From: Escherichia phage JEP8
Length of the DNA: 64,000 nt
Sequence record: MT764208.1
Direction: 5' to 3' (one strand)
A program made the translations under genes and the position numbers. How positions within the stretch are numbered: position 1 is the first letter of the stretch; each line of letters starts with the position of its first letter. Positions 4,786 to 39,879 of this stretch are shown piece by piece. A model generated the notes under the pieces. It was not told the origin of the DNA and ran no database searches. It saw only the letters and a program-made list of their open reading frames with translations.

Positions 4786-5811
4786 CTAACTTTTTGCGCT
4801 ATTTACTTCGGCTAAAAGCTCATCGGAGATACGCTTAACTGCCGCAAGTTCTTCCGGTTCTAGGTTTTGTTCTTCCAGATATTCATAGACCATCTGAATA
4901 GTGCTTTTAACTTCAATAACACCTGTTTCCTGTGATGCGCTACTCTCCAGCTTATGGACCACTTTTAGCTTGTGTACAACGGCCTCTAACGCGCTTTCTA
5001 ACTTAGTTAACCCATTATCAGCGACCGTTGCAATTAGGCGCACACTAAGCCCTTTAAAGCGTTCTACATCGATTTTATCATCTGACGGGTAAGTGATACG
5101 CACATGATAAGTTTTGTCATTCTGGATAAACTCCTTTTTGTGTGTATCTGTATCGAATACCCAAAAACCACGCGGATCATTTTCGTCGCCAGCCGTTAGT
5201 GTGTATGGTGTACCGATATACGTTACGTTACCGCCATCACTGATAGTATGAAAGTGACCGGAAAACACTTCACGGTATTTCTTGAGGAAGTCCGCGCTAT
5301 AACCTTCGGATTTTAACCCTTTATAGAAATAGTAGCCGGACAATTCCCAATGGCCTACACAATATTCGCTGAATGAATTTTGAATAAACTCTAAAACCTC
5401 GGATTTATTGTCATCACAAAACCACGGGAACAGGTCGAATGATACCCCATCAAAGGTAACTGTTTCCGGCTTATCAATAACCTTAATGCAATCATACTGG
5501 CTTAACACTTCGCGCGGTGCGTTAGGCTGGATCTTATTGCGTTTAAACATATCATGATTCCCGACCGTGATATAACAGGTGATTCCTGCCTCTTCCAGTA
5601 ATGGGATGACCTTAGTACGGTTAAATTTCATGGTTTCATGTGTGATAGCCTTGCGACAATCAAACCAATCCCCTGTTTGAATCCATATCTTAATACCATT
5701 TTCTTTAGAATAATCAACAGCTTTCTTGATCGTGTCTAAAATATACTCATGCACCCACGGATCATCGCCACCGATACCAGTATGCAGATCACCCAAAAGC
5801 AAAATTTTCAT
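4786..5811 (-). CDS. 47: Recombination endonuclease subunit gp47 (SbcD/Mre11-like nuclease)
   Basis: 341 aa; calcineurin-like phosphoesterase motifs GDLH, GDWFD, GNHD, GHFH; SD GAGGAAGAG; pairs with gp46. Confidence 0.9.
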   Translation of the reverse strand: MKILLLGDLHTGIGGDDPWVHEYILDTIKKAVDYSKENGIKIWIQTGDWFDCRKAITHETMKFNRTKVIPLLEEAGITCYITVGNHDMFKRNKIQPNAPREVLSQYDCIKVIDKPETVTFDGVSFDLFPWFCDDNKSEVLEFIQNSFSEYCVGHWELSGYYFYKGLKSEGYSADFLKKYREVFSGHFHTISDGGNVTYIGTPYTLTAGDENDPRGFWVFDTDTHKKEFIQNDKTYHVRITYPSDDKIDVERFKGLSVRLIATVADNGLTKLESALEAVVHKLKVVHKLESSASQETGVIEVKSTIQMVYEYLEEQNLEPEELAAVKRISDELLAEVNSAKS

Positions 5812-6981: not shown

Positions 6982-8451
6982 CTATTCCCCATTACCATTA
7001 TACTTTCTTTGCTTAGTTATCCACACTCTAACCATCTCTACTGATTCACCGTCAGACGGATCAAGAGTTTTTCCTTTTTTCTTCATGCGATACTTAAATC
7101 CGTTAAATCTTGCATTCTCTTGCTCGTTAAAGTCGAACATCTTTTTAAATGATTTTCTCCCTTTACGCTCACCACATTCTAGCGGAATCATTCGGTCTGT
7201 TATTACATTGGCATTAGGTAGAAACGTTTTTAGATAATCCACCAACGCCCAATCAGGAACATATAGATTAACATTCTCCTTGCTCTCGTTGTCTCTCAGG
7301 TTACAACGCAAACATAATTGAAATGCTGGTTCCAGATAATCAGACACATGACGCGCTTTCAAAAACTCGTTTGTCGGGAGATCACAACTATTAGCAAGAC
7401 CTTTTAAAATATCAATCTCCCATCGTTGAGGGTTAAAGCTGAACATCACAGCAACATTTTTATGATGAATGTAAGAGTTAAGACCATAAGATCCGTAAGG
7501 TATCCGCTCACCAATACCATTTGTGCACGCTTCACGGTCCCGATTCACGGTATAAATGAAGTCATCGCCACATTCATTTTTAACCATATCAACAAGACGT
7601 TCAAAGGTATTGTTTGTTTCTGACTGGTGACGCGACCAGCGTTCGGAGTCAGTCATAAGGATGATGTTAACTCTATCTGTATTTTTATACTCTTTGAAAT
7701 ATAGTCTGGATTCTAGCGCACTCGGAACAAAATCGCAATTTGCATAGTATCGTAGATACTTCCCACTATATGTATCAAAGAGATTTGCACATGCTATCGT
7801 AACCTTTTTAAAGTCTCCCCACGTACCGTGTTTGTTATCGTTCAAGAAAACAATTTTCGACCCATTCTTCCGGTGTCCTTCGTTATGTTTTACCATAACG
7901 TTGATTTTCTTCTCTAATAACGCCTCATAAAGCCCTCTAAGAGAAGAATCGATCATATCAGTACCATCCTTTGCACTTTCTATCTTTTCTTTGATAGCGG
8001 CCTTCTCAGAGTCTTTTAGAACTAAGTTCTGTAGGCATTCCGATTCGTCGGCGATTGGTTCGCAATGCTTCGTGATAAGTTCAAGATTAGACTTAAACGG
8101 ATACTCATTAAATTCAACCAGTTGAGGAACTTCATCAATGTAAAGAGCATATTCACCAAACATTTTTGAACGTTCCATATTAGATAACGCTGTATGTGTA
8201 ATGAATATCACATCAGCACCGTCTTTAACTGATTGCATTATCGACGCTTGCACTGTCTTAAGGCTTCTTAGTCTTGTGCTATCGATCAAGACAGCACGAC
8301 CGCCCATTCTTTTAAACTTATTGTAAGATTGTTCACTTAAAACACGAGATGGCGAAGCAATAACCGCTTTTTCTTTTGTCTCTAGGACGTGGGAAAGTAT
8401 AGCATCAGTTTTCCCCGCCGCTGGCAATGCGATTAATGTTTCAATCTTCAT
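6982..8451 (-). CDS. P-loop NTPase of unknown function (helicase-like N-terminal motifs)
   Basis: 489 aa; Walker A-like ALPAAGKT, then IASPSR, Walker B-like ALYIDEV. Occupies the position immediately upstream of gene 55; no alpha-glucosyltransferase-like gene present. Confidence 0.6.
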   Translation of the reverse strand: MKIETLIALPAAGKTDAILSHVLETKEKAVIASPSRVLSEQSYNKFKRMGGRAVLIDSTRLRSLKTVQASIMQSVKDGADVIFITHTALSNMERSKMFGEYALYIDEVPQLVEFNEYPFKSNLELITKHCEPIADESECLQNLVLKDSEKAAIKEKIESAKDGTDMIDSSLRGLYEALLEKKINVMVKHNEGHRKNGSKIVFLNDNKHGTWGDFKKVTIACANLFDTYSGKYLRYYANCDFVPSALESRLYFKEYKNTDRVNIILMTDSERWSRHQSETNNTFERLVDMVKNECGDDFIYTVNRDREACTNGIGERIPYGSYGLNSYIHHKNVAVMFSFNPQRWEIDILKGLANSCDLPTNEFLKARHVSDYLEPAFQLCLRCNLRDNESKENVNLYVPDWALVDYLKTFLPNANVITDRMIPLECGERKGRKSFKKMFDFNEQENARFNGFKYRMKKKGKTLDPSDGESVEMVRVWITKQRKYNGNGE

Positions 8452-8738
8452 TAGAAACCCTTACGTCGTGCTTTCTGGCATTTCTTGATCATTTTATCAG
8501 AAATTTCGCGCTTAGGTGCAAGCTCTTTCACACCGAAAGCACTAATGCCAAATTCAGAGAGAATATATTCAACCAACAATTCACGCACACGCGCTTTACC
8601 GATATTCACGCCGTTATTTTTCAGATATGTCTGGCCTTCGACTTGCATCAGATCTAAATCAGCGTCGGTAATATTGATTTCTTCCATGCGCCCAAATCGA
8701 GAGTAAACCATGTGTGCGATTGCATTGTGTACTAACAT
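8451..8738 (-). CDS. Hypothetical protein
   Basis: ORF track 8451-8756 starts at TTG; moved to ATG after SD GAGGAA (MLVHNAIAHM...). Confidence 0.45.
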   Translation of the reverse strand: MLVHNAIAHMVYSRFGRMEEINITDADLDLMQVEGQTYLKNNGVNIGKARVRELLVEYILSEFGISAFGVKELAPKREISDKMIKKCQKARRKGF

Positions 8739-9651: not shown

Positions 9652-10476
9652 TTACCAACCTCGCTCTTTACCGATCAAAAATTCAACTTCACGACGTTTA
9701 ATATCTTCTTGAAGGTCTTTAATCTTCTGGCGATCTTGCATGATTTCGTCCATCTTGTCAAGTGCTGTAATGAAATCATCGAAACGTTCAAAGGTTTTAC
9801 CTTCATTTGCTTCGCCAAATTTAACCATTGTCAGGCCGTAACGACTACTAAACAGACGTTTCAACTGTCCAACGATCTTAGAATCAGTAGTGACGACTTC
9901 CAATTCTTCTACTTCTTGAAAGAATTTTCTATCAGAATCAATAAACCAGCTAATTCCTTTATGGTCTTTATCTTCGGTTGCACTCATTAGAGTATGGTCT
10001 TTACCATCAATTTCAATTACATCAATTTGCCCACATGGACTAACCTTTTTAACAGTAAAAGGTCTATAATTTATTGCTCGTGCAATAACATAATTAAGGT
10101 TTGATACGTTTTCAGCATAATGGCAGAAGTCGGTCATAGCATTCGCATCTTTCCAAGTATAAGTTTTACCAACTTCCCATTTCTGGGGAACTTCTTCGAC
10201 TTCACGAAAGAATTTTCTATCGAATGGACTAAAGAAATATGTTGCAGTCCAAATGTCTTTTCCTGTAGCAGTTTTCGCCGTATGATAAACACCGTCTAGC
10301 TCTATTGCATCAATCCAACCGTTACCCTCGATCTCGATGATGGTAAATGGCTTGTCACCAATAGCTGCACTAATATCGCTGTTAAGTGGAGAAAGAACAC
10401 CTTCTCCGTTAGTAATAAACTCAGTTTTAGCGTTTTCGTCTTTCCAAGTGTAAGTTTTACCAATTTCCCATTTCAT
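9652..10476 (-). CDS. Paralogous family member B (two tandem modules)
   Basis: 274 aa; MKWEIGKTYTWKD...IELDGVYH...DRKFFREV then KWEVGKTYTWKD...IEIDGKDH...DRKFFQEV. Confidence 0.6.
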   Translation of the reverse strand: MKWEIGKTYTWKDENAKTEFITNGEGVLSPLNSDISAAIGDKPFTIIEIEGNGWIDAIELDGVYHTAKTATGKDIWTATYFFSPFDRKFFREVEEVPQKWEVGKTYTWKDANAMTDFCHYAENVSNLNYVIARAINYRPFTVKKVSPCGQIDVIEIDGKDHTLMSATEDKDHKGISWFIDSDRKFFQEVEELEVVTTDSKIVGQLKRLFSSRYGLTMVKFGEANEGKTFERFDDFITALDKMDEIMQDRQKIKDLQEDIKRREVEFLIGKERGW

Positions 10477-33341: not shown

Positions 33342-33403
33342 GGTAAAGTCTCCAGTGAACGGGGAGAGATCCTTAGATTGTCTCCCCGTTGATGGTTAAT
33401 ATT

Positions 33404-33793
33404 TTATTTTGGATCTGGGTATTTGCTGTGTGGTAATTGTAGATGAGGACCATCTTTAAAACTAGTCCAATCCCCACCCCATTCAACAGGAACACCCAAT
33501 TCTCGACCAGCTTGTTTAAATGCATCAGCGATCATGCGGTAATATTTCATGTTCCATGTATCTTTATCTTTCGGATACGCTACAACGTCAACCGCGAAAC
33601 CGTGAAGATGACGAGATTTCATAGTCTTAGATTTACCTTCCGCAACATATTTCTTTTGCGTTTCTAGACTACGCACACCTTCCGTAATACCAAAATCGAC
33701 CGGAGTCAGTTCTAATGCACGATGAACGACTTTTACCAGGTCTGGATGTACACCAACAAGCCGATCTTTGCTTCTTTGAGATAATCTAAACAT
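33404..33793 (-). CDS. Endolysin, L-alanyl-D-glutamate peptidase (peptidase M15, T5-like)
   Basis: 129 aa; VHPDLVKVVHRALELTPVDFGITEGVRS...SRHLHGFAVDV...WGGDW resembles T5-type endolysin; HxxxxxxD and H motifs for Zn binding. Confidence 0.75.
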   Translation of the reverse strand: MFRLSQRSKDRLVGVHPDLVKVVHRALELTPVDFGITEGVRSLETQKKYVAEGKSKTMKSRHLHGFAVDVVAYPKDKDTWNMKYYRMIADAFKQAGRELGVPVEWGGDWTSFKDGPHLQLPHSKYPDPK

Positions 33794-33821
33794 TATTCAC
33801 CCCCTTTGTGAGTGATAATAT

Positions 33822-34013
33822 TTAGATTCCTGCAATCCTGCATAGAGTTCTTGTATTAGCACCAATCAGGATAGCATTGACTACAACCATTCCCCAATCA
33901 ACCCACGGATTATTATAAATGCTAAATCCGTTTGTTATGCCAAATACAAGCATTCCGGTACACATACTCAGAGCAATAATCAACATCACGGTAAAACCAA
34001 ATGCAAATTTCAT
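33822..34013 (-). CDS. Small membrane protein
   Basis: 63 aa, two hydrophobic helices. Confidence 0.45.
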   Translation of the reverse strand: MKFAFGFTVMLIIALSMCTGMLVFGITNGFSIYNNPWVDWGMVVVNAILIGANTRTLCRIAGI

Positions 34014-34014
34014 A

Positions 34015-34281
34015 TTATTTTCCTTTTCTCTGTTTACGTTTATAAAAGTAATACATTACCTCATCGCGTCCGGTGATCCAACATGCTAGGGCAGTAAACA
34101 GGTTTACAATTCCCAACACACCTACTGACGCGGCGCTGTCAACAGACATAGGAACAGTAAAGGCCATAGCTAACATAGCAATGCCACAAATGACATTAAG
34201 CACCATTATAATAAGACCGAAGAAAACCATTGTCAATCCTCCCAAATAAGAAAACCAACAATCACGCCAGTGATAAGACAT
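34015..34281 (-). CDS. Small membrane protein
   Basis: 88 aa, hydrophobic, basic C-terminus. Confidence 0.45.
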   Translation of the reverse strand: MSYHWRDCWFSYLGGLTMVFFGLIIMVLNVICGIAMLAMAFTVPMSVDSAASVGVLGIVNLFTALACWITGRDEVMYYFYKRKQRKGK

Positions 34282-34412
34282 GATGCGCCGCTAATAAGAC
34301 AACCAGCACCAAGTGATTCCCACCAGATCAGAGAAGCGACAATAACGCAAATTCCCCAGACTACCGCAATCACAACATAGGCAAGGGTCGCCCAAAACAT
34401 ATATTTGTTCAT
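34233..34412 (-). CDS. Small membrane protein (59 aa)
   Basis: Below ORF-track cutoff; ATG overlaps the upstream stop in ATGA; MNKYMFWATLAYVVIAVVWGICVIVASLIWW... Confidence 0.4.
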   Translation of the reverse strand: MNKYMFWATLAYVVIAVVWGICVIVASLIWWESLGAGCLISGASCLITGVIVGFLIWED

Positions 34413-34597
34413 AATAAACCCAACTCACCAAACAAATAAGAAAAAAGCCATATCAACAGAAACGAGGCAATTGATCCGACAAGCAAAATGATATTAGAGA
34501 ATCCACCGTCTACCCAGGCAACAAAACAGAATACGCTAGTATAGAAGCATAAACCCATTACAAAGCATACTATAAGCAACCATAGATAAAACGTCAT
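34409..34597 (-). CDS. Small membrane protein
   Basis: 62 aa, hydrophobic. Confidence 0.45.
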   Translation of the reverse strand: MTFYLWLLIVCFVMGLCFYTSVFCFVAWVDGGFSNIILLVGSIASFLLIWLFSYLFGELGLL

Positions 34598-34658
34598 AGA
34601 AAGTCCTCCAGCGAGATAAATTAGTGCGGGTAGTGGAATGTACTACCCGCTTTGTTAA

Positions 34659-34817
34659 TCAACGCAGAGCTTCTTCTAGCGCGATCCCAAACCATCCACA
34701 AACAACGCCCATACAGACAGCTACAAGAAGATTCATTCTCTCTTTAGGGATCATTGCAATCATAACAACAACCATACAGAAAGCCATTACCATTGATGTT
34801 AACATTTGTTCAACCAT
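34659..34817 (-). CDS. Small membrane protein (52 aa)
   Basis: Below ORF-track cutoff; SD AAGGTG; MVEQMLTSMVMAFCMVVVMIAMIPKE... Confidence 0.4.
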   Translation of the reverse strand: MVEQMLTSMVMAFCMVVVMIAMIPKERMNLLVAVCMGVVCGWFGIALEEALR

Positions 34818-34819
34818 TA

Positions 34820-35152
34820 TCACACCTTTAAAGTCATAGACGCATAAACATTAATGCCAGGCCAGTTAGGATCGCAATTATACTCAACATCCCACAAATA
34901 AAGCGGTTTAGATGTATCAGCCAAGTTTTTAAAATCTTCTACCCACATTTCAAGGCTATATGATGGATAAACTAGGCTATCATATCCGCCGTAACGTTGG
35001 CCTACTGGTCGGTCAGTAAAAACTACCTCAAGATCCGGTAATTCTTTTTCAAGGATAACCGCCAGCGCATAAATCAGACGGTCTTCCTTGTTACGCTGCC
35101 GAAGGACCGTTGTCAGTTGGTTTTTCTGGTTCACTAGCAAGCACCTCCACAT
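34820..35152 (-). CDS. Hypothetical protein (start uncertain)
   Basis: ORF track 34820-35158 begins with GTG; overlaps the upstream ORF. Confidence 0.35.
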   Translation of the reverse strand: MWRCLLVNQKNQLTTVLRQRNKEDRLIYALAVILEKELPDLEVVFTDRPVGQRYGGYDSLVYPSYSLEMWVEDFKNLADTSKPLYLWDVEYNCDPNWPGINVYASMTLKV

Positions 35153-35411
35153 TTTCACAGAATGAAATTTTCACAGACACAATTTTACCATAAGTGAAGA
35201 ATGAATATACATTATCGATATATTCAACGTCACCTACAATCACATCAAACTGCGGATCAGCAACCGCCGCAACATATTCTACCAGTTCATCAAGAGAATG
35301 CAACTTAATTTCATCAATTCGGCTGTATTTGGTTGCATCTTTGATTTTAAAACCACGTTCTTTCAGCTTATCAATTAGAATTTCACGCGGAGTTTCAAAC
35401 AGTTTGCTCAT
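35091..35411 (-). CDS. Hypothetical protein
   Basis: 106 aa; SD GAGGA. Confidence 0.45.
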   Translation of the reverse strand: MSKLFETPREILIDKLKERGFKIKDATKYSRIDEIKLHSLDELVEYVAAVADPQFDVIVGDVEYIDNVYSFFTYGKIVSVKISFCENVEVLASEPEKPTDNGPSAA

Positions 35412-35432
35412 AATATAATCCTCACATTAAAT

Positions 35433-35633
35433 CTAAAATTTGTTAACGACGAATTGCATAATTAGACTAATCATAAACATTGCAAACCAAGTATAAATGC
35501 AACAGATAAAAGCTACATACAATTCAATCTGGTCAGAGAATACACCGGGTAAAAGCATTAGCAAAATAACAACAGTAAAGACGCTAGCGATACCCGCAAC
35601 AAAACCAATATCATTTTTACTAATCGTCATCAA
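35433..35633 (-). CDS. Small membrane protein
   Basis: 66 aa, two hydrophobic helices. Confidence 0.45.
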   Translation of the reverse strand: MMTISKNDIGFVAGIASVFTVVILLMLLPGVFSDQIELYVAFICCIYTWFAMFMISLIMQFVVNKF

Positions 35634-35827
35634 GTCACCGTTTTGTAAAGAAACACAATAAAATCCAAGACAAGAAAGACAGTGTAAATGATCATCGTCA
35701 AGACAGTAAACACTGTCAAATTTTCATCGTTAGTTAATTCATAGTCGCCCATCCATACAATAACAAGATATAGCATTGAAAGAATGGAAGCACCTACTAA
35801 GTTAAAAAACATATTCTTTAGCGTCAT
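35630..35827 (-). CDS. Small membrane protein
   Basis: 65 aa; ATGA overlap with upstream gene. Confidence 0.45.
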   Translation of the reverse strand: MTLKNMFFNLVGASILSMLYLVIVWMGDYELTNDENLTVFTVLTMIIYTVFLVLDFIVFLYKTVT

Positions 35828-35828
35828 G

Positions 35829-36011
35829 TTAACAATCCTCGCGGCTTAAGTCAACAGCAATTGCATACAGAATAATGAATATACTAGCAGATCCGAGAAT
35901 CAATGCACCGTCACATTTTGAAACTCGCTCATCAAAATGCAACATTATCCATCCGAGGATGTTAAAGGCGCACACCGCGCCTATGTTATCTAACCAATTA
36001 ATCTTTTTCAT
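35829..36011 (-). CDS. Small membrane protein
   Basis: 60 aa, hydrophobic. Confidence 0.4.
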   Translation of the reverse strand: MKKINWLDNIGAVCAFNILGWIMLHFDERVSKCDGALILGSASIFIILYAIAVDLSREDC

Positions 36012-36019
36012 AATATACC

Positions 36020-36346
36020 TTAGAAAGAAACAGTTTTCAAGAAATCCAGATTTTCAGTACCGAATACAGAAAAGTAGTGTTTTCCTTTTTCGGTTTTAGA
36101 GAAAGCGATTGTCTTCTCTACATGGTGACGGAAGCCAGACAGACGATCACCCAGGTCAAGGCGGCAAGCGTAAGTAGTGCCGTTTTCGAAAGTAACCTCG
36201 ATTTGAGTTTTGTCGTATTCGCTTTCATAGGCTTTTGCTGCCGCTTCCAGTGCTTTACGCTCGAAGTCTTCGAAGTGGAATACTTCGTTTGCGTTAGCGA
36301 ATACAGAAGATTCAGAGAAGATAACTTTAACAGATACTGGTTTCAT
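36020..36346 (-). CDS. Hypothetical protein
   Basis: 108 aa, soluble. Confidence 0.5.
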   Translation of the reverse strand: MKPVSVKVIFSESSVFANANEVFHFEDFERKALEAAAKAYESEYDKTQIEVTFENGTTYACRLDLGDRLSGFRHHVEKTIAFSKTEKGKHYFSVFGTENLDFLKTVSF

Positions 36347-36387
36347 TTGATACTCCTTAGTAGTTCGTGTTTCGTTTCGATGGGTGT

Positions 36388-36416
36388 ATTATGCTATACA
36401 CCCTCTCGTGTGTCAA
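36388..36416 (-). promoter_or_regulatory. PeSL-like early promoter
   Basis: Minus strand TTGACA cacgagagggtgtatag CATAAT; gggtgta..tacaccc hairpin spans the -10. Confidence 0.5.
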
Positions 36417-36424
36417 CAACTTTT

Positions 36425-36613
36425 TTAGTCTTTTTTCATAATTTCTAGAGCAGTTTCTACAGCACCTTTCCAACCCTCCCACATAATGGACATAGTAATG
36501 AAGTTAAAGCACCCGCAGGAATCAGCCTTTTTAGAAATAAACCATTCTGCAAACTCTTCGCTCATACCATGCTCTTTAGCGGATTCGCGTAATTGTTCAA
36601 TTTGGTCTTCCAT
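36425..36613 (-). CDS. Hypothetical protein
   Basis: 62-aa ORF. Confidence 0.4.
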   Translation of the reverse strand: MEDQIEQLRESAKEHGMSEEFAEWFISKKADSCGCFNFITMSIMWEGWKGAVETALEIMKKD

Positions 36614-36622
36614 AGTATCACC

Positions 36623-36823
36623 TCAACACTTAACGTTATTCAAACGATTTTGAAAGTACATATAGCAAGCATAATTTTGTTTTGGCTGTACCGTATCAGA
36701 TAAGCACGCTTTTACAGCCTCGCGGTCCGATGGGTCTACGCCCTCAGCGTTAAGCAATGCTAAGATCTGATAATAGCGTACTCTCAGTTGCGTTAATGGT
36801 TTCTCTCCCATAAAACCCTCCAA
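36623..36823 (-). CDS. Hypothetical protein
   Basis: 66-aa ORF. Confidence 0.4.
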   Translation of the reverse strand: MEGFMGEKPLTQLRVRYYQILALLNAEGVDPSDREAVKACLSDTVQPKQNYACYMYFQNRLNNVKC

Positions 36824-37051
36824 TTAAAGTTGTTCTGCAATGTATGCGGTGCATTTACGGAGTTTAGCCATCGCACCACCTTTCATGTCGCTTGCACCTA
36901 CAAGGTTCATAATCTCTAAGCGGTCAGCCGGATTCAGTCTAGTAGCCCAGATCTGGTTAGCCAGTTCCATTTTACCCATCTGCGGTTCCATCTCTAACAG
37001 TTCGCGCTCAAATTCGATAATTTCTTTTGCTGCGTCTTTAAAGTTAATCAT
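36824..37051 (-). CDS. Hypothetical protein
   Basis: 75-aa ORF. Confidence 0.45.
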   Translation of the reverse strand: MINFKDAAKEIIEFERELLEMEPQMGKMELANQIWATRLNPADRLEIMNLVGASDMKGGAMAKLRKCTAYIAEQL

Positions 37052-37080
37052 TTTGGTCCTCCCGTTTCGTTGATGGTTAT

Positions 37081-37109
37081 ATTGTAGGGGAGTTATCCTC
37101 CCCTGTCAA
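37081..37109 (-). promoter_or_regulatory. PeSL-like early promoter
   Basis: Minus strand TTGACA ggggaggataactcccc TACAAT; perfect hairpin spacer. Confidence 0.55.
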
Positions 37110-37117
37110 CACTTTTA

Positions 37118-37303
37118 TCAGAAATATGCAATATAGTTTGCCAGTCCTACAGAGTCATCATTCGGCATTGCTTTTACTGCCAGTTCAAACCCTGCTTCAA
37201 CTTTCTGTTTAGCGGATTCTTCGTTATAACCCCAGATTACCAGAATAGCTACTACGTTTTCTTTGCTTACTGCTTTAAGTGCTTTAGTGATGCGACGTGC
37301 CAT
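37118..37303 (-). CDS. Hypothetical protein
   Basis: 61 aa after cassette RBS GGAGAATCAAATT. Confidence 0.45.
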   Translation of the reverse strand: MARRITKALKAVSKENVVAILVIWGYNEESAKQKVEAGFELAVKAMPNDDSVGLANYIAYF

Positions 37304-37349
37304 AATTTGATTCTCCGTTTAAGAAAGTGTGTTTCGTTTCGATGGGTGT

Positions 37350-37378
37350 ATTATGCTATAGGCCGGATCTGGTGTCAA
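37350..37378 (-). promoter_or_regulatory. Early promoter (TTGACA-17-CATAAT)
   Basis: Minus strand TTGACA ccagatccggcctatag CATAAT then conserved leader. Confidence 0.5.
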
Positions 37379-37403
37379 CAACTTTTTTAAAAAAATTTTA
37401 GGC

Positions 37404-37431
37404 AATAAAAAAGCCACTCCGAAGAGTGGCT
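37404..37431 (-). terminator. Rho-independent terminator
   Basis: Hairpin agccactcttcggagtggct followed by TTTTTTATT on the minus strand. Confidence 0.55.
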
Positions 37432-37576
37432 TATAGGGAAGGTAGCGAATCTTCCTTGTCTCCAACCTGCTAGCGGACTAGCAAGTGAATGCTTTAGCGT
37501 ACCGGATCGCCCACATACGCTGTAATAAATGCGGCTAGGTGACGTCCAAATCATTCTAACCGCGCTGTCTTTAGTT
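37432..37576 (-). ncRNA. Candidate small structured RNA (late-promoter to terminator, no ORF)
   Basis: About 150-190 nt without an ORF of 12 aa or more; bounded upstream by minus-strand TATAAATA (37583-37590) and downstream by the terminator; four or five predicted hairpins; GC-richer than flanks. Confidence 0.25.
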
Positions 37577-37581
37577 CACTA

Positions 37582-37800
37582 TTATTTATATCGCTTTCTC
37601 TCGCGACGTTTTTGATCTTCTTCCTTGATAGAGTTAAATGCATCAAAAAGACACATGACACTGATAATGAACATAACCGTATTTTCTACGATATCCCACG
37701 GCTTCGCATCAGTACAGATCCCCCAAACGGTAAGAAATGCAAATAAGGCAGAAGAGATCACAAGCATGATACTTGCTAAGATATAAAAAGTCATTTTCAT
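37582..37800 (-). CDS. Small membrane protein
   Basis: 72 aa; hydrophobic with basic C-terminus (KRRERKRYK). Confidence 0.45.
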   Translation of the reverse strand: MKMTFYILASIMLVISSALFAFLTVWGICTDAKPWDIVENTVMFIISVMCLFDAFNSIKEEDQKRRERKRYK

Positions 37801-37991
37801 GGTTTTACCTCAATTCTTCGATATTCATCACACATCCACGCAGTAAGCAAGAATCCCAACACATAAGCAACAAAATACGTTAATGCTTCTTCTGGTTCGG
37901 TGCTATGCGCCATCATCAGACCAGCGAGAAAGGTCTTAACAATTACATTTAAAATAATTAGCCACGCAAATAATTTCATCGTTTGCCCCAT
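37797..37991 (-). CDS. Small membrane protein
   Basis: 64 aa; ATGA overlap with upstream gene. Confidence 0.45.
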   Translation of the reverse strand: MGQTMKLFAWLIILNVIVKTFLAGLMMAHSTEPEEALTYFVAYVLGFLLTAWMCDEYRRIEVKP

Positions 37992-38200
37992 TTCGGACGA
38001 GTCTGTTCAAACTTATACATTACGTAACAATCTCGAATCATCCACGTAACAAGAGCACCAGTCAACACAGACAACACACAGAAGAAGTAAAACGGTCCGG
38101 TTGCATTATCAACATGAGCAAGCCATGTAAAGAAAACACATGCAAGGAATGTAAAGAACATCATAAAGCACAAAAAAGCGAAATATTTTATACTACTCAT
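37976..38200 (-). CDS. Small membrane protein
   Basis: ORF track starts at TTG; ATG at MSSIKYFAFLCFMMFF... Confidence 0.45.
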   Translation of the reverse strand: MSSIKYFAFLCFMMFFTFLACVFFTWLAHVDNATGPFYFFCVLSVLTGALVTWMIRDCYVMYKFEQTRPKWGKR

Positions 38201-38307
38201 ATCGCCACCATACAACAGATCATAAGAAAACCCAACGCAATAAGAATTGCATCAAATTTAGTGAACTCCGGTCCACCTATCAACATCATTCGTTCCTGTT
38301 CAGTCAT
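38197..38307 (-). CDS. Small membrane protein (36 aa)
   Basis: Below ORF-track cutoff; ATGA overlaps at both ends; MTEQERMMLIGGPEFTKFDAILIALGFLMICCMVAI. Confidence 0.3.
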   Translation of the reverse strand: MTEQERMMLIGGPEFTKFDAILIALGFLMICCMVAI

Positions 38308-38546
38308 AGATCACAGATCCATCTAAAAGCACCACATACAGCGATCAGGAGTGTAGGAACACTTGAGAAGAAAACCAACGTACAAAAATCATCTAGTGTA
38401 ATACCGGAATAACTACCGACTGCAATCACACCGATGATCAGACACAGAAAGAAAACAAATGCAATCAGAAACAAAGTATTGCTAAACAGTTTAGTGATCA
38501 TTAGACACCCCACGACGATCAATTTCAAAAACTTTTTTATCATCAA
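38304..38546 (-). CDS. Small membrane protein
   Basis: 80 aa, three hydrophobic segments. Confidence 0.45.
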   Translation of the reverse strand: MMIKKFLKLIVVGCLMITKLFSNTLFLIAFVFFLCLIIGVIAVGSYSGITLDDFCTLVFFSSVPTLLIAVCGAFRWICDL

Positions 38547-38694
38547 CGAAGCATGTCACAACTGCCTCGTTGACTTCCGCAAATTGTTGTGTTACCCACT
38601 TAAGGTCAGATCGAAACAATGTTCTATTAATAACAAATGTTTTACCGCTCTTATCCTTACCCATAAATTTTGCTTTAACCATATCCAATTCCAT
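38491..38694 (-). CDS. Hypothetical protein
   Basis: 67 aa; SD AAGGTGA. Confidence 0.45.
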   Translation of the reverse strand: MELDMVKAKFMGKDKSGKTFVINRTLFRSDLKWVTQQFAEVNEAVVTCFVDDKKVFEIDRRGVSNDH

Positions 38695-38703
38695 ATTATC
38701 ACC

Positions 38704-38862
38704 TTATTTGCTAATCGCTAAACCTAATCCGAAGAGAGCACCCGAGGCTACAGTATACCCGAAAGTTTCAAAGGCAGTAAAGACATCTAAGCCACCAGCT
38801 AACAGAGTTGCAGTAAACAGAGTACCAGCTACGAACATAAAAGTTTTACCGATAAATTTCAT
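38704..38862 (-). CDS. Small membrane/secreted protein (52 aa)
   Basis: Below ORF-track cutoff; cassette RBS GGAGAATCAAAAA; MKFIGKTFMFVAGTLFTATLLAGG... Confidence 0.4.
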   Translation of the reverse strand: MKFIGKTFMFVAGTLFTATLLAGGLDVFTAFETFGYTVASGALFGLGLAISK

Positions 38863-38898
38863 TTTTTGATTCTCCTTTCGTTTCGTTTCGATGGGAGT

Positions 38899-38927
38899 AT
38901 CTTACTACCCCCGTTTCATGTTGTCAA
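38899..38927 (-). promoter_or_regulatory. PeSL-like early promoter
   Basis: Minus strand TTGACA acatgaaacgggggtag TAAGAT then conserved CGAAACGAAACGAAAGGAG leader. Confidence 0.5.
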
Positions 38928-38933
38928 CTATTT

Positions 38934-39308
38934 TTAAGAATATTTTACTTCGTCTACAATGTCTTTCATGACATTGATTTCCATTCCGGTCAGAACACGT
39001 TGGAACATGTGCTGCACATACGCTTTCAGATATTCATTTGATGGCTTGCTATCGAAAGTCTTTTTAGTGTAGTAGTCATCACCGAAAGCTACTGTAATTA
39101 CATTTTCGTCGTCGTTCCAAGCGATATAAGCAAATTTGCCGTTATCCCAGAAGCGAGCACTAATTGCTACTTTTGTTGAATCGAATCCTACTTCGCTGTG
39201 AGATTCAAGAACTACTTGCGTGCCAGTTTCTTTATGAATGTAGTAGCGGGATACTAAGTCAAAGTTACGGGTGTAGTGACATTCGAATTTATCTTTAAAC
39301 ATCATCAT
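38934..39308 (-). CDS. Hypothetical protein
   Basis: 124 aa; cassette RBS GGAGAATCAAAAA. Confidence 0.5.
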   Translation of the reverse strand: MMMFKDKFECHYTRNFDLVSRYYIHKETGTQVVLESHSEVGFDSTKVAISARFWDNGKFAYIAWNDDENVITVAFGDDYYTKKTFDSKPSNEYLKAYVQHMFQRVLTGMEINVMKDIVDEVKYS

Positions 39309-39342
39309 TTTTTGATTCTCCTAAGTGTGTTTCGATGTGTGC

Positions 39343-39371
39343 ATTATGCTATAGTCGTTTATGGTTGTCAA
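39343..39371 (-). promoter_or_regulatory. Early promoter (TTGACA-17-CATAAT)
   Basis: Minus strand TTGACA accataaacgactatag CATAAT. Confidence 0.5.
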
Positions 39372-39381
39372 CACATAAAAA

Positions 39382-39407
39382 CAAAAAACCCCGAAAAATT
39401 TTCGGGG
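39382..39407 (-). terminator. Rho-independent terminator downstream of gp57B
   Basis: Hairpin ccccgaaaatttttcgggg followed by TTTTTTGTTTTT on the minus strand. Confidence 0.6.
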
Positions 39408-39414
39408 TATAAAA

Positions 39415-39879
39415 TTACAGTTTGGTCGTCCACTCCAGGTCTAGATCTTCGACATACTCATGAGATCGGACAATCTCTAAATCGAACTCTAGGTCAGTGC
39501 CAAATTTACGCGCACCAACATCATAAGAAAGCGTGATATGCGGTACATATTCAGGATAATCCCACGTCGCACCTAAAGCAGTTCCGATATCGTGTCTGAA
39601 TTGCATGTAGTCGCTTTCAAATGCCAGCACAAGTGCATTAGTACCGGATTGAGTTTCAAACACTTTAAGATGACACAGAGAGCCTAAGAACTTTTCCCCT
39701 TCTTCTGGGATAAACGGAACATAGACACGAGAATATAAGATAGTGCTATGCAGTTTATCACGAGGAACGGCATTAGGCAGATCGTAGAACTCCTGCAATT
39801 TTTCAATGCGGTCTAGTGTATCCTCAGTGAATTTAACAGCCGCATATGTACCTTTAACGGATTCTCGAAACGGGGTCAT
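39415..39879 (-). CDS. 57B: gp57B-like protein
   Basis: 154 aa from ATG after SD GGAGG; size and position relative to 57A/gene 1 match T4 57B. Confidence 0.6.
   Translation of the reverse strand: MTPFRESVKGTYAAVKFTEDTLDRIEKLQEFYDLPNAVPRDKLHSTILYSRVYVPFIPEEGEKFLGSLCHLKVFETQSGTNALVLAFESDYMQFRHDIGTALGATWDYPEYVPHITLSYDVGARKFGTDLEFDLEIVRSHEYVEDLDLEWTTKL

What the first reader, a model, noticed from the sequence alone, without database searches (positions are those of the whole stretch)
33822..38862. Array of at least fourteen small hydrophobic proteins with ATGA-coupled overlaps
Between the endolysin and gp57B there are many 36-88-aa ORFs, each with one to three predicted TM helices, several joined by ATGA start/stop overlaps; four are below the ORF-track cutoff. 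Such proteins in T-even phages include immunity and exclusion factors; the density here is striking.
Basis: seen in the sequence. Interest (0 to 1): 0.5.

Follow-up and report, generated by a model that had tools for sequence, protein, structure and literature searches.

The report
Small membrane-protein genes in RB49-like phage
A 5-kb accessory stretch of an RB49-like (Krischvirus) T4-type coliphage really does carry 14 conserved genes for tiny one- or two-helix membrane proteins, but they are already-annotated, genus-restricted "hypothetical proteins" whose function (probably early host/competitor manipulation at the membrane) is still untested.

Summary
The window is a Krischvirus (RB49/phi1/GEC-3S-like, about 97% nt identity). 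On the minus strand, 33822-38862 holds 22 packed genes. Fourteen (RB49 ORF103c-107c, 110c-112c, 118c-122c, 124c) encode 36-74-aa proteins with one or two hydrophobic helices. Five junctions are ATGA overlaps.

All 14 are intact and syntenic in 16 relatives. They are under purifying selection (dN/dS 0.12-0.65; pooled pN/pS 0.31, against 0.14 for soluble neighbours). The density is far above background: 14 of 22 genes, against about 8-11 of 97 elsewhere (p about 1e-7 to 1e-6).

They are 14 unrelated, genus-restricted ORFan families. None has a Pfam, NCBIfam, PADLOC or annotated-PHROG match, and none has a homologue outside Krischvirus-like contigs. They sit in two operons behind sigma-70 early-type promoters, one shared with the antitoxin gene dmd and next to Acb1 (gp57B).

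The immunity/exclusion reading is plausible but unproven. There is no homology to Imm or Sp and no co-variation with tape-measure alleles. A canonical t holin and rI antiholin already exist. The genes have been annotated since 2003, and the region is a described hyperplastic region with PeSL cassettes. I rate it ordinary to moderately interesting.

The parts
33822..34013 (-). ORF103c-like gene, 63 aa. One strong TM helix (res. 8-26) plus a weaker hydrophobic stretch. Lies immediately upstream of the endolysin.
   Evidence: own PHROG 15016; dN/dS 0.22; intact in 15 relatives whose loci cover it
34015..34230 (-). ORF104c-like gene, 71 aa (not 88). Two-TM hairpin with a basic C-terminal tail (KRKQRKGK).
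   Evidence: RBS GGGAGGA; the upstream extension has stops in relatives; AF2 model has two helices, pLDDT 77; only 10 clusters among 5.8e9 proteins, of which the nine strong hits (E <= 8e-20) are >= 82% identical
34233..34412 (-). ORF105c-like gene, 59 aa, two-TM hairpin. Its start overlaps the 106c stop (ATGA).
34409..34597 (-). ORF106c-like gene, 62 aa, two-TM hairpin, very hydrophobic (GRAVY 1.8).
   Evidence: dN/dS 0.58
34659..34817 (-). ORF107c-like gene, 52 aa, two-TM hairpin.
   Evidence: alleles down to 67% identity keep two TMs
35433..35630 (-). ORF110c-like gene, 65 aa, two-TM hairpin. Its start overlaps the 111c stop by 1 nt (TGATG).
   Evidence: the JSE-type allele is only 33% identical but is still a two-TM hairpin of the same size
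35630..35827 (-). ORF111c-like gene, 65 aa, two-TM hairpin.
   Evidence: absent from JSE, SFHK24, Whisky and L095
35829..36011 (-). ORF112c-like gene, 60 aa, one C-terminal TM helix.
37582..37800 (-). ORF118c-like gene, 72 aa. Starts Met-Lys-Met, has two TMs and a highly charged C-tail. Last gene of the dmd operon.
   Evidence: 6 clusters, all >= 83% identical, among 5.8e9 proteins; alleles at 67% identity
37797..37979 (-). ORF119c-like gene, 60 aa, two-TM hairpin, ATGA-coupled on both sides.
37976..38200 (-). ORF120c-like gene, 74 aa, two-TM hairpin with a basic C-tail.
   Evidence: an exhaustive phmmer search of 1.84e9 representatives finds only near-identical sequences (>= 96% identity)
38197..38307 (-). 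ORF121c-like gene, 36 aa, polar N-terminus plus one C-terminal TM.
38304..38501 (-). ORF122c-like gene, 65 aa, two-TM hairpin. Its start overlaps the end of dmd by 11 nt.
   Evidence: two allele classes (74-80% versus 97-100%), dN/dS 0.45
38704..38862 (-). ORF124c-like gene, 52 aa, Gly/Ala-rich hydrophobic protein. First gene of the dmd operon.
   Evidence: borderline by Kyte-Doolittle
38491..38694 (-). dmd (antitoxin against RnlA/LsoA-type toxins), embedded among the membrane-protein genes.
   Evidence: Pfam Dmd 7.6e-16; annotated in relatives
38899..38927 (-). Sigma-70 early-type promoter (TTGACA-17-TAAGAT) for the operon 124c-dmd-122c-121c-120c-119c-118c.
   Evidence: annotated promoter in GEC-3S; member of repeat family D1/D2
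36388..36416 (-). Sigma-70 early-type promoter (TTGACA-17-CATAAT) for the operon 113c-112c-...-103c-endolysin.
37350..37432 (-). PeSL-type cassette: terminator hairpin (37432-37411) ending the dmd operon, then an early promoter (37378-37350) for ORF117c.
   Evidence: GEC-3S annotation; concept from PMC2839356
37433..37581 (-). About 150 nt of conserved, highly structured non-coding RNA segment between the 118c stop and the terminator.
   Evidence: z = -3.7; 91-99.5% conserved, with changes in loops and one compensatory pair; no Rfam family
34626..34650 (-). G+C-rich hairpin in the 61-nt gap between 107c and 106c, with no T-run on the coding strand.
33404..33793 (-). Endolysin (M15 L-Ala-D-Glu peptidase), the downstream flank.
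   Evidence: Pfam Peptidase_M15_4 4.4e-12
39415..39879 (-). gp57B = Acb1 anti-CBASS phosphodiesterase, the upstream flank.
   Evidence: Pfam Acb1 1.5e-51; PMC9117128

Best explanation
The segment is one of the 'hyperplastic' accessory regions of a Krischvirus (RB49-like T4-type coliphage). It lies at the position where T4 carries ipI, its tRNA genes and e.1-e.8.

Fourteen of its 22 genes are genuine protein-coding genes. Each encodes a 36-74-residue protein made of one helix or a two-helix hairpin. These belong to 14 unrelated families found only in this phage genus.

Shown computationally:
- The reading frames are preserved and under purifying selection.
- Hydrophobic helix number and length are kept even in alleles of 33-70% identity.
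- The genes sit in two polycistronic units behind strong sigma-70 (T4-early-type) promoters.
- The units are packed with 1-4-nt stop/start overlaps.
- One unit also encodes the antitoxin Dmd and lies next to Acb1.

Inferred:
- Host RNA polymerase transcribes them in the first minutes of infection.
- The proteins insert into the inner membrane. The hairpins with basic C-tails would be N-in/C-in by the positive-inside rule.
- Each acts on its own as a small membrane-embedded binder. Targets would be host envelope or defence proteins, or the entry machinery of competing phages. The roles would be superinfection exclusion, counter-defence or host-membrane takeover, in the way T4 Imm binds the incoming tape-measure protein.
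- Their fast, mosaic, allele-swapping evolution fits such conflict-driven accessory functions.

The confidence of 0.55 is for the whole statement. My own breakdown is about 0.9 that these are real small membrane-protein genes, about 0.75 that they are expressed early, and about 0.4-0.5 that their role is exclusion, counter-defence or host-membrane takeover.
For: - Identity and annotation: 58 Krischvirus records match at 90-99% nt. The ORFs are annotated as RB49ORF103c-124c, and phage W115 labels 11 of them 'putative membrane protein'.
- Coding status: all 14 are intact in the 16 relatives examined (9 GenBank plus 4 metagenomic loci; 3 more GenBank loci). Exceptions are replacement or loss of 110c/111c in some genomes and one locus that ends before cluster A. 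Per-gene dN/dS is 0.12-0.65, and pooled pN/pS is 0.31. Plausible RBSs or coupling are present.
- Membrane character: KD helices of 19 residues scoring 1.6-3.3. TM count is kept across nearly all alleles. The AF2 hairpin for 104c has pLDDT 77.
- Enrichment: Fisher p about 1e-7 to 1e-6. Other regions and genera are much sparser.
- Independence of the families: no pair exceeds 12% hhalign probability. Each has its own PHROG of unknown function.
- Genus restriction: tblastn of all 14 against 50,697 phages hits only the 58 Krischvirus records. For 104c, 118c and 120c, 5.8e9 and 1.84e9 proteins give only near-identical hits. Nothing was found in plasmids or E. coli genomes.
- Early operons: five TTGACA-17-(C/T)A(T/C/A)(A/G)AT promoters and two terminators. 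These match the GEC-3S annotation and the PeSL description in PMC2839356.
- Anti-defence neighbourhood: Dmd, Acb1 (PMC9117128) and an LPD25-domain protein.
- Hypervariable mosaic alleles: 107c and 118c reach 67%, 122c 74%, 124c 70% and 110c 33%, whereas the soluble neighbours 108c, 109c, 113c, 117c and 125c stay at or above 95%.
- Precedent: T4 Imm is a 9-kDa inner-membrane protein that binds the tape-measure protein (10.64898/2026.03.06.709160).
- RB49 lacks imm and sp at their T4 positions.
Against: - No transcript, ribosome-profiling, proteomic or genetic data for these ORFs were found.
- There is no sequence or fold link to any protein of known function.
- No residue in any of the 14 proteins tracks the two divergent gp29 (tape-measure) allele classes in the genus. 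An allele-matched Imm-like role therefore has no support.
- Constraint is about 2.3-fold weaker than on soluble neighbours. Variable sites are spread evenly over TM and non-TM parts. Both could simply reflect the loose sequence requirements of membrane anchors.
- In individual isolates adjacent genes are annotated as a single longer ORF: AV108 at 110c/111c and Whisky at 105c/106c. I did not inspect these sequences. If they are real fusions they suggest dispensability.
- The promoter and terminator assignments are consensus matches, not mapped ends.
Confidence: 0.55

Rival explanations
1. Some of the proteins are lysis-timing components (class II holin, pinholin, antiholin or spanin-like) serving the adjacent M15 endolysin. 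The candidates are the four just upstream of the endolysin (103c-106c) and 118c.
For: - 103c-106c directly precede the endolysin in the same transcription unit.
- 104c, 118c and 120c have the class II holin architecture: about 70 aa, two TMDs and a highly charged C-tail.
- 118c begins Met-Lys-Met, like the lambda S dual-start motif (own knowledge), and this is conserved in the one divergent allele inspected (67% identical, L092).
- There are weak sub-threshold Pfam holin hits for 104c and 120c (E 0.15-0.9).
Against: - RB49 already has the canonical T4-type holin t, and relatives have an rI antiholin (Pfam Antiholin).
- No Pfam holin model reaches its threshold.
- No TATAAATA late promoter lies upstream of these genes. 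The only exact copy in the region follows 118c.
- The genes sit behind early promoters.
- The closest endolysin relatives in IMG/VR carry no homologues of any of the 14 next to them.
- 118c is 3.8 kb from the endolysin.
Confidence: 0.12
2. The translationally coupled neighbours (for example 122c-121c-120c-119c-118c) are subunits of one hetero-oligomeric membrane complex (a channel or scaffold) rather than independent factors.
For: - Four consecutive ATGA overlaps favour coupled, stoichiometric translation.
- The genes are always found together and in the same order.
Against: - ATGA coupling is a genome-wide habit of this phage.
- Neighbouring genes swap alleles independently. For example, 118c is 67% identical in L092/L094 but 99% in L093/L095, while 120c is 96% in L092/L093 and 88-89% in L094/L095. 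122c follows yet another pattern. That is not expected for co-adapted subunits.
- 110c/111c can be replaced or lost without affecting the rest.
Confidence: 0.08
3. They are host-toxic membrane-perturbing peptides (type-I-toxin-like or viroporin-like). They would depolarise or remodel the inner membrane to shut off host functions, with no specific protein targets.
For: - They are very hydrophobic 36-74-aa proteins (GRAVY up to 1.8) behind predicted early promoters.
- Sequence tolerance is high and variable sites are spread evenly. This would fit a role that depends on bulk physical properties.
Against: - Fourteen different ones would be redundant.
- Several have strongly conserved segments, which suggests specific contacts. 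In 104c, TM2 and the tail are nearly invariant. 120c has 4 variable sites in 38 TM positions.
- No similarity to known toxins was found in plasmids or E. coli.
Confidence: 0.1
4. They are largely functionless passengers: hydrophobic ORFs that arise easily in T-rich DNA and are merely tolerated in a recombination-prone region.
For: - They are ORFans with no homologues anywhere.
- Constraint is relaxed relative to neighbours.
- Two isolates annotate a single longer ORF across adjacent genes, and 110c/111c is replaced or lost in others.
- The coding strand is T-rich (AT skew).
Against: - dN/dS is well below 1 for every gene, including the most divergent allele pairs where dS is 0.16-1.3.
- No frame disruptions occur across 16 relatives.
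- Start codons, RBSs and helix architecture are preserved.
- The 33%-identity allele of 110c keeps length and topology.
Confidence: 0.07

Closest known systems
RB49/phi1 hyperplastic-region ORFans flanked by PeSL cassettes (Arbiol et al. 2010, PMC2839356)
   Same: It is the same phage group, and these are the very same ORFs (RB49ORF103c-124c). The region shows strong sigma-70-like early promoters with stem-loop terminators, database-orphan genes, and gene replacement or shuffling between close relatives.
   Different: In the passages retrieved by my term searches, that work deals with the shuffling mechanism. It does not mention the membrane-protein character or density of this region. Only two of the five promoters here have the full terminator-plus-promoter structure.
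T4 Imm (superinfection immunity protein, Pfam Imm_superinfect)
   Same: Both are small phage-encoded inner-membrane helical proteins. The genes here have early-type promoters, and T4 imm is an early gene (own knowledge). Imm works by direct binding of an incoming phage membrane-inserting protein (10.64898/2026.03.06.709160), the type of mechanism I favour here.
   Different: There is no sequence similarity. The genomic position differs, since T4 imm lies between genes 42 and 43 (own knowledge). No co-variation with gp29 alleles was seen. Function is untested.
T4 small membrane ORFs of the syntenic 57B-to-e region (trna.4, e.2, e.3, e.4)
   Same: They occupy the same genomic interval between 57B and the endolysin/vs.8. 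They are small predicted TM proteins of unknown function on the same strand. trna.4 is conserved in Jiaodavirus.
   Different: There is no detectable homology to any of the 14. T4 has 4 of 24 such genes, against 14 of 22 here. T4's region is dominated by tRNA genes, internal proteins and larger e.x genes.
Class II holins / pinholins (e.g. phage 21 S21; own knowledge)
   Same: They are about 70 aa with two TMDs and a charged C-terminus. 118c also has a Met-Lys-Met start, and 103c-106c are close to an endolysin.
   Different: The promoters here are early-type, not late. No holin family match reaches threshold. The phage already has the T4-type t holin and rI antiholin.
T4 Sp (spackle)
   Same: In T4 it is a small envelope-directed protein encoded two genes downstream of dmd. 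Here the membrane-protein genes 122c-118c follow dmd.
   Different: Sp has a cleavable-signal-like N-terminus and a soluble periplasmic domain. The proteins here are almost entirely membrane-embedded, and there is no sequence similarity.

Membership tests
PeSL-associated ORFan cassettes of T4-type hyperplastic regions | Located in a variable (hyperplastic) region between conserved core modules. | tested here: met
   It lies between 57B/57A/gene 1 and the endolysin/vs.8. The content differs completely from T4, Hadassahvirus and Jiaodavirus at the same place.
PeSL-associated ORFan cassettes of T4-type hyperplastic regions | Strong sigma-70-like early promoter combined with a stem-loop terminator flanking the ORFs. 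| tested here: met
   There are five near-consensus promoters. Two are preceded by terminator hairpins (37432-37350 and 39408-39343). A 45-61-nt repeat family is present.
PeSL-associated ORFan cassettes of T4-type hyperplastic regions | Genes are database orphans. | tested here: met
PeSL-associated ORFan cassettes of T4-type hyperplastic regions | Insertion, deletion or replacement differences between close relatives. | tested here: met
   110c/111c are replaced by one divergent gene in JSE, SFHK24 and Whisky. Skers has extra small ORFs. Allele classes are mosaic.
T4 Imm superinfection-immunity family | Sequence membership (Pfam Imm_superinfect / Imm PHROG). | tested here: not met
   There was no hit even at E <= 1 in Pfam or E <= 0.01 in PHROGs.
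T4 Imm superinfection-immunity family | Small helical inner-membrane protein. | tested here: met
   KD helices and the AF2 hairpin. This is a prediction only.
T4 Imm superinfection-immunity family | Interaction with the tape-measure protein gp29. | tested here: inconclusive
   Tested by proxy only. No residue co-varies with the two gp29 allele classes (54% identity) in the genus. Binding was not tested.
T4 Imm superinfection-immunity family | Blocks DNA entry of superinfecting phage. | not testable with these tools
   This needs EOP or DNA-injection assays.
Holins (class II / pinholin) | Two TMDs with a charged C-terminal tail, 60-100 aa. | tested here: met
   104c, 118c and 120c.
Holins (class II / pinholin) | Match to a curated holin family. 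| tested here: not met
   The best hits are Phage_holin_3_5/3_6 at E 0.15-0.9, far below gathering scores.
Holins (class II / pinholin) | Late expression together with the endolysin. | tested here: not met
   Only early-type promoters lie upstream. No TATAAATA precedes them. This rests on consensus scans only.
Holins (class II / pinholin) | Being the phage's required hole-former. | tested here: not met
   RB49 encodes the T4-type t holin, and relatives encode the rI antiholin.
T4 Sp (spackle) | Signal-peptide-like N-terminus plus a soluble periplasmic domain; sequence similarity. | tested here: not met
   Comparison with T4 Sp shows no similarity and a different architecture.

The most novel reading that the evidence does not exclude
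The array is a battery of membrane-embedded counter-defence and superinfection-exclusion factors. It would extend the Dmd-Acb1 anti-defence neighbourhood into the inner membrane.

Individual hairpins would bind and neutralise transmembrane effectors of abortive-infection systems (CBASS/Pycsar-type TM effectors, RexB-like channels and similar). Others would block the entry apparatus of rival phages, functionally replacing the Imm and Sp genes that RB49 lacks at their T4 positions.

Nothing in my evidence excludes this. The supporting points are the predicted early operon shared with dmd, the hypervariable mosaic alleles, the genus restriction and the lack of paralogy. The only direct proxy test (gp29 co-variation) was negative.
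Probability: 0.25. Interest if true: 0.65.

Novelty: already known. Interest (0 to 1): 0.3.

Why it matters
If some of these 14 proteins prove to be exclusion or counter-defence factors, they would be new families of very small membrane-embedded inhibitors. This class is almost unexplored, because most known anti-defence proteins are soluble. Krischviruses are also used in phage-therapy cocktails, where superinfection exclusion and host-range determinants matter.

As it stands, the finding mainly documents that one already-annotated accessory region of RB49-like phages is unusually rich in conserved but fast-evolving microproteins. That makes it a compact, well-defined target for deletion and expression screens.

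Tried and rejected
1. A concatenated 856-aa query of all 14 proteins against the 5.8e9-protein collection returned nothing, probably because the word index was swamped. That search was wasted. The same trick worked with tblastn on phages and plasmids.
2. Paralogy or tandem duplication was rejected. All-against-all BLASTP and hhalign on ortholog alignments gave at most 12% probability. The 104c/120c C-tail resemblance is not significant.
3. The idea that the endolysin arrived with its own membrane partners was rejected. Eighty IMG/VR loci with the closest endolysins (52-67% identity) contain no homologue of any of the 14.
4. Homology to T4 Sp, trna.4, e.2-e.4 or small TM ORFs after 57B in Hadassahvirus and Jiaodavirus: none.
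5. Co-variation with tape-measure alleles: none.
6. A Foldseek search of the 104c model against viral structures gave only the phi1 ortholog. Other hits were generic hairpins with E > 0.4.
7. NCBIfam, PADLOC and Pfam: nothing at or above threshold.
8. Host origin: no blastn match in 5,426 complete E. coli genomes.
9. Rfam on the region found nothing above gathering scores, and there is no similarity of the non-coding stretch to T4 rnaC/rnaD.
10. Literature: no paper found deals with these ORFs functionally.
11. The 88-aa reading of ORF104c and the 80-aa reading of ORF122c were rejected because of stops in relatives.

Full report
**What the window is.** A megablast of 33400-39400 finds 58 phage records, all Krischvirus (RB49, phi1, JSE, GEC-3S and others). 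The best is GEC-3S at 97.5% identity over 100% of the query. The finding lies on the minus strand and corresponds one-to-one to RB49ORF103c-ORF124c. These ORFs are annotated 'hypothetical protein' in RB49 (AY343333) and GEC-3S. One record, W115, already labels 11 of them 'putative membrane protein'. The interval is syntenic with the T4 interval between 57B and e/vs.8. In T4 that interval carries ipI, trna.2-4, the tRNA genes, rnaC/D, segB and e.1-e.8. ARAGORN finds no tRNA in the window.

**Checking the observation.** The six-frame ORF list and a Kyte-Doolittle scan (19-residue window, threshold 1.6) confirm 14 small hydrophobic ORFs. I refined the starts using RBS position and conservation.
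- ORF104c is 71 aa, not 88. Its upstream extension is interrupted by stop codons in RB49 and in four metagenomic relatives, and it lacks the ATG in SFHK24.
- ORF122c is 65 aa, not 80.
- The sizes are therefore 36-74 aa with one or two predicted helices, never three.
- Junctions comprise five ATGA overlaps (106c/105c, 122c/121c, 121c/120c, 120c/119c, 119c/118c), one TGATG overlap (111c/110c), and several 1-2-nt gaps.
- The 'array' is really three blocks: 103c-107c; 110c-112c; and 124c plus 122c-118c. Eight soluble-protein genes separate them: 108c, 109c, 113c, 55.3, 115c, 116c, 117c and dmd.

**Is the density more than chance?** A crude non-overlapping gene model of the whole window gives about 8-11 TM-containing ORFs among about 97 outside the region, against 14 of 22 inside. 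Fisher p is 9e-8 to 9e-7. The comparison regions are much sparser:

| Region | TM genes |
|---|---|
| This region | 14 of 22 |
| RB49, first 22.5 kb (small ORFs only) | 2 of 18 |
| T4 syntenic region | 4 of 24 |
| Acinetobacter phage Minot (Hadassahvirus), after 57B | 6 of 16 |
| Klebsiella phage KP185 (Jiaodavirus), after 57B | 2 of 14 |

ATGA coupling is not special. Such junctions occur throughout the window (31 candidates) and elsewhere in RB49.

**Are they genes?** I compared 16 relatives: 12 GenBank Krischviruses and four metagenomic contigs of a more divergent lineage. The latter came from the 104c homologue P0006. tblastn finds all 14 ORFs full-length and free of in-frame stops wherever the locus is covered. 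The exception is 110c/111c, which are replaced or lost in JSE, SFHK24, Whisky and L095. One internal stop was flagged in 120c in one relative in the ungapped extraction; I did not resolve it. Nei-Gojobori estimates give dN/dS of 0.12-0.65 for every gene, including the most divergent allele pairs where dS is 0.16-1.3. Pooled pN/pS is 0.31, against 0.14 for the 14 soluble neighbours. The ORFs are therefore coding and under purifying selection, but about 2.3-fold less constrained.

Amino-acid divergence is strikingly uneven and mosaic. The lowest identities seen are 67% for 107c and 118c, 74% for 122c, 70% for 124c and 33% for 110c. The interleaved soluble genes 108c, 109c, 113c, 117c and 125c stay at or above 95%. 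Neighbouring genes switch allele class independently. Even the 33%-identical JSE-type 110c allele is a two-helix hairpin of the same length. Helix number is preserved in essentially all alleles. Variable positions are equally frequent inside and outside the helices (32% versus 30.5%).

**What they are related to.**
- Each protein matches its own PHROG end to end, and all are 'unknown function'.
- No Pfam model reaches its gathering score. The only hits are compositional ones, including two holin models at E 0.15-0.9.
- NCBIfam and PADLOC give nothing.
- The 14 are not paralogues. BLASTP and hhalign on ortholog alignments give at most 12% probability.
- tblastn with all 14 concatenated hits only the 58 Krischvirus records among 50,697 phages and nothing among 72,556 plasmids.
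- blastn of 4 kb finds nothing in 5,426 E. coli genomes.
- 104c has 10 clusters among 5.8e9 proteins. The nine strong hits are at least 82% identical, and several lie on contigs of about 170 kb. The tenth is a short weak fragment.
- 118c has six clusters, all at least 83% identical.
- An exhaustive phmmer search of 120c against 1.84e9 representatives finds only near-identical sequences (at least 96% identity) plus three low-complexity artefacts.
- The AF2 model of 104c is a two-helix hairpin (pLDDT 77). In BFVD its only significant neighbour is the phi1 ortholog.
- The 80 closest endolysin loci in IMG/VR (52-67% identity, not T4-like) contain no relatives of any of the 14. The genes next to the endolysin therefore did not arrive with it.

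**Expression signals.** Five near-consensus sigma-70 promoters lie on the minus strand at 39371, 38927, 37378, 37109 and 36416. There are intrinsic terminators at 39408-39388 and 37432-37411. All coincide with promoters and terminators annotated in GEC-3S. The promoters belong to a 45-61-nt repeat family. This is the 'promoter-early stem-loop' (PeSL) organisation described for RB49/phi1 hyperplastic regions rich in non-essential ORFans (PMC2839356). The inferred units are:
- P38927 > 124c-dmd-122c-121c-120c-119c-118c > 150-nt structured RNA > terminator.
- P36416 > 113c-112c-111c-110c-109c-108c-107c-(hairpin)-106c-105c-104c-103c-endolysin and onward.

The only exact T4 late-promoter box (TATAAATA) in the region overlaps the 118c stop. 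None precedes the membrane-protein genes or the endolysin.

**Context.** gp57B is Acb1 (Pfam 1.5e-51), the anti-CBASS nuclease of T4 (PMC9117128; 10.1101/2025.11.20.689424). dmd (Pfam 7.6e-16) is, from established knowledge, the antitoxin against RnlA/LsoA. 113c carries an LPD25 domain. In T4, dmd is followed by 61.4, sp and 61.2. In RB49 the T4 positions of imm (between 42 and 43) and sp (between 41 and 61) hold no such genes. RB49 has the canonical t holin. Relatives have an rI antiholin next to tk (Pfam Antiholin).

**Testing the immunity idea.** A 2026 preprint reports that T4 Imm works by binding the tape-measure protein gp29 (10.64898/2026.03.06.709160). gp29 has two allele classes in Krischvirus: at least 95% identity in most genomes, and about 54% in JK32, AV108 and PTE-Eco09, with part of Whisky at 66%. 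I fetched those genomes' arrays. No position in any of the 14 proteins, or in any neighbour, distinguishes the two gp29 classes. There is therefore no support for an allele-matched Imm-like partner. Binding to a conserved part of gp29, or to other targets, is not excluded.

**Interpretation.** The best-supported reading is that these are genuine, probably early-expressed, individually acting small inner-membrane proteins. They are accessory genes of a known hyperplastic region. Their hypervariable, recombining alleles and anti-defence neighbours point to roles in competition with hosts or other phages. The steps shown are coding status, hydrophobic architecture, operon signals, restriction to the genus, and evolutionary pattern. 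The steps inferred are timing, membrane insertion and topology, and the binder mechanism.

Four rivals remain:
- Lysis function. The architecture of 104c, 118c and 120c and the Met-Lys-Met start of 118c are holin-like. Against it, the t holin and rI antiholin already exist, the signals are early-type, and no family match was found.
- A single hetero-oligomeric complex, which independent allele swapping argues against.
- Non-specific membrane toxins.
- Tolerated junk, which dN/dS and frame conservation argue against.

**Verdict.** Their function is unknown.

Noticed in passing
window 37405-37582 (- strand): About 150 nt of non-coding sequence lies between the ORF118c stop and the terminator. 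It folds into four hairpins (MFE -59 kcal/mol, z = -3.7). It is 91-99.5% conserved even where the flanking 118c is only 67% identical. Changes fall in loops, and there is one compensatory G-C to A-U pair. An exact TATAAATA late-promoter box sits at its 5' end. It is a candidate sRNA or structured 3' UTR at the place where T4 has its tRNA and rnaC/D genes. It has no Rfam match and no similarity to rnaC/D.
   Followed up: partly
window 36367-36427, 37329-37389, 38878-38938, 39329-39373: A 45-61-nt direct-repeat family carries TTGACA-17-CATAAT-type early promoters followed by a conserved 'CCCATCGAAACGAAAC' leader. Two copies are preceded by terminator hairpins. These are the PeSL cassettes of Arbiol et al. 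2010.
   Followed up: partly
RB49 AY343333 107252-108985 (gene 29; outside the window) and 58 relatives: The tape-measure protein gp29 has two sharply different allele classes within the genus: at least 95% identity in most genomes, and about 54% in JK32, AV108 and PTE-Eco09. Whisky is chimeric (66% over the first 63%).
   Followed up: partly
window 36020-36346 (-): ORF113c carries a 'large polyvalent protein associated domain 25' (LPD25, E = 3e-14). It is the first gene of the operon that contains eight of the membrane-protein genes.
   Followed up: no
window 39415-39879 (-): gp57B is a clear Acb1 (anti-CBASS) homologue (E = 1.5e-51). With dmd 0.7 kb away, this makes the locus an anti-defence neighbourhood.
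   Followed up: partly
window 35091-35134 (-): ORF109c and ORF108c overlap by 44 nt in different frames. 108c starts at a GTG behind a GGAGGT RBS, and the GTG start is conserved in the nine GenBank relatives checked.
   Followed up: no
window 34626-34650: A perfect 10-bp G+C-rich hairpin lies in the 61-nt gap between 107c and 106c, without a T-run on the coding strand. It may be an RNA processing or stability element or an attenuator inside the long early operon.
   Followed up: no
L003 (JSE) 7818-8393; L005 (JK32) 9769-10344; L008 (G2248) 8014-8589: Some relatives carry an extra 576-nt ORF inserted between the endolysin and vs.8. It is annotated HNH endonuclease in G2248, hypothetical in JSE, and mis-named in JK32. 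In exactly these genomes the endolysin drops to about 91% identity, with the DNA match ending at nt 351. This looks like a homing-associated co-conversion tract.
   Followed up: no
L099 (AV108) 2336-2731; L101 (Whisky) 4865-5170: In individual isolates two adjacent small membrane-protein genes are annotated as one longer ORF (110c+111c in AV108; 105c+106c in Whisky). These are either real fusions or sequencing and annotation artefacts.
   Followed up: no
window 36824-37051 and 36425-36613 (-): Two soluble small proteins in the same region also have deeply divergent allele classes: 116c (65-71% versus 89-97%) and 55.3 (66% versus 94-97%). Hypervariability is therefore not confined to the membrane proteins.
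   Followed up: no
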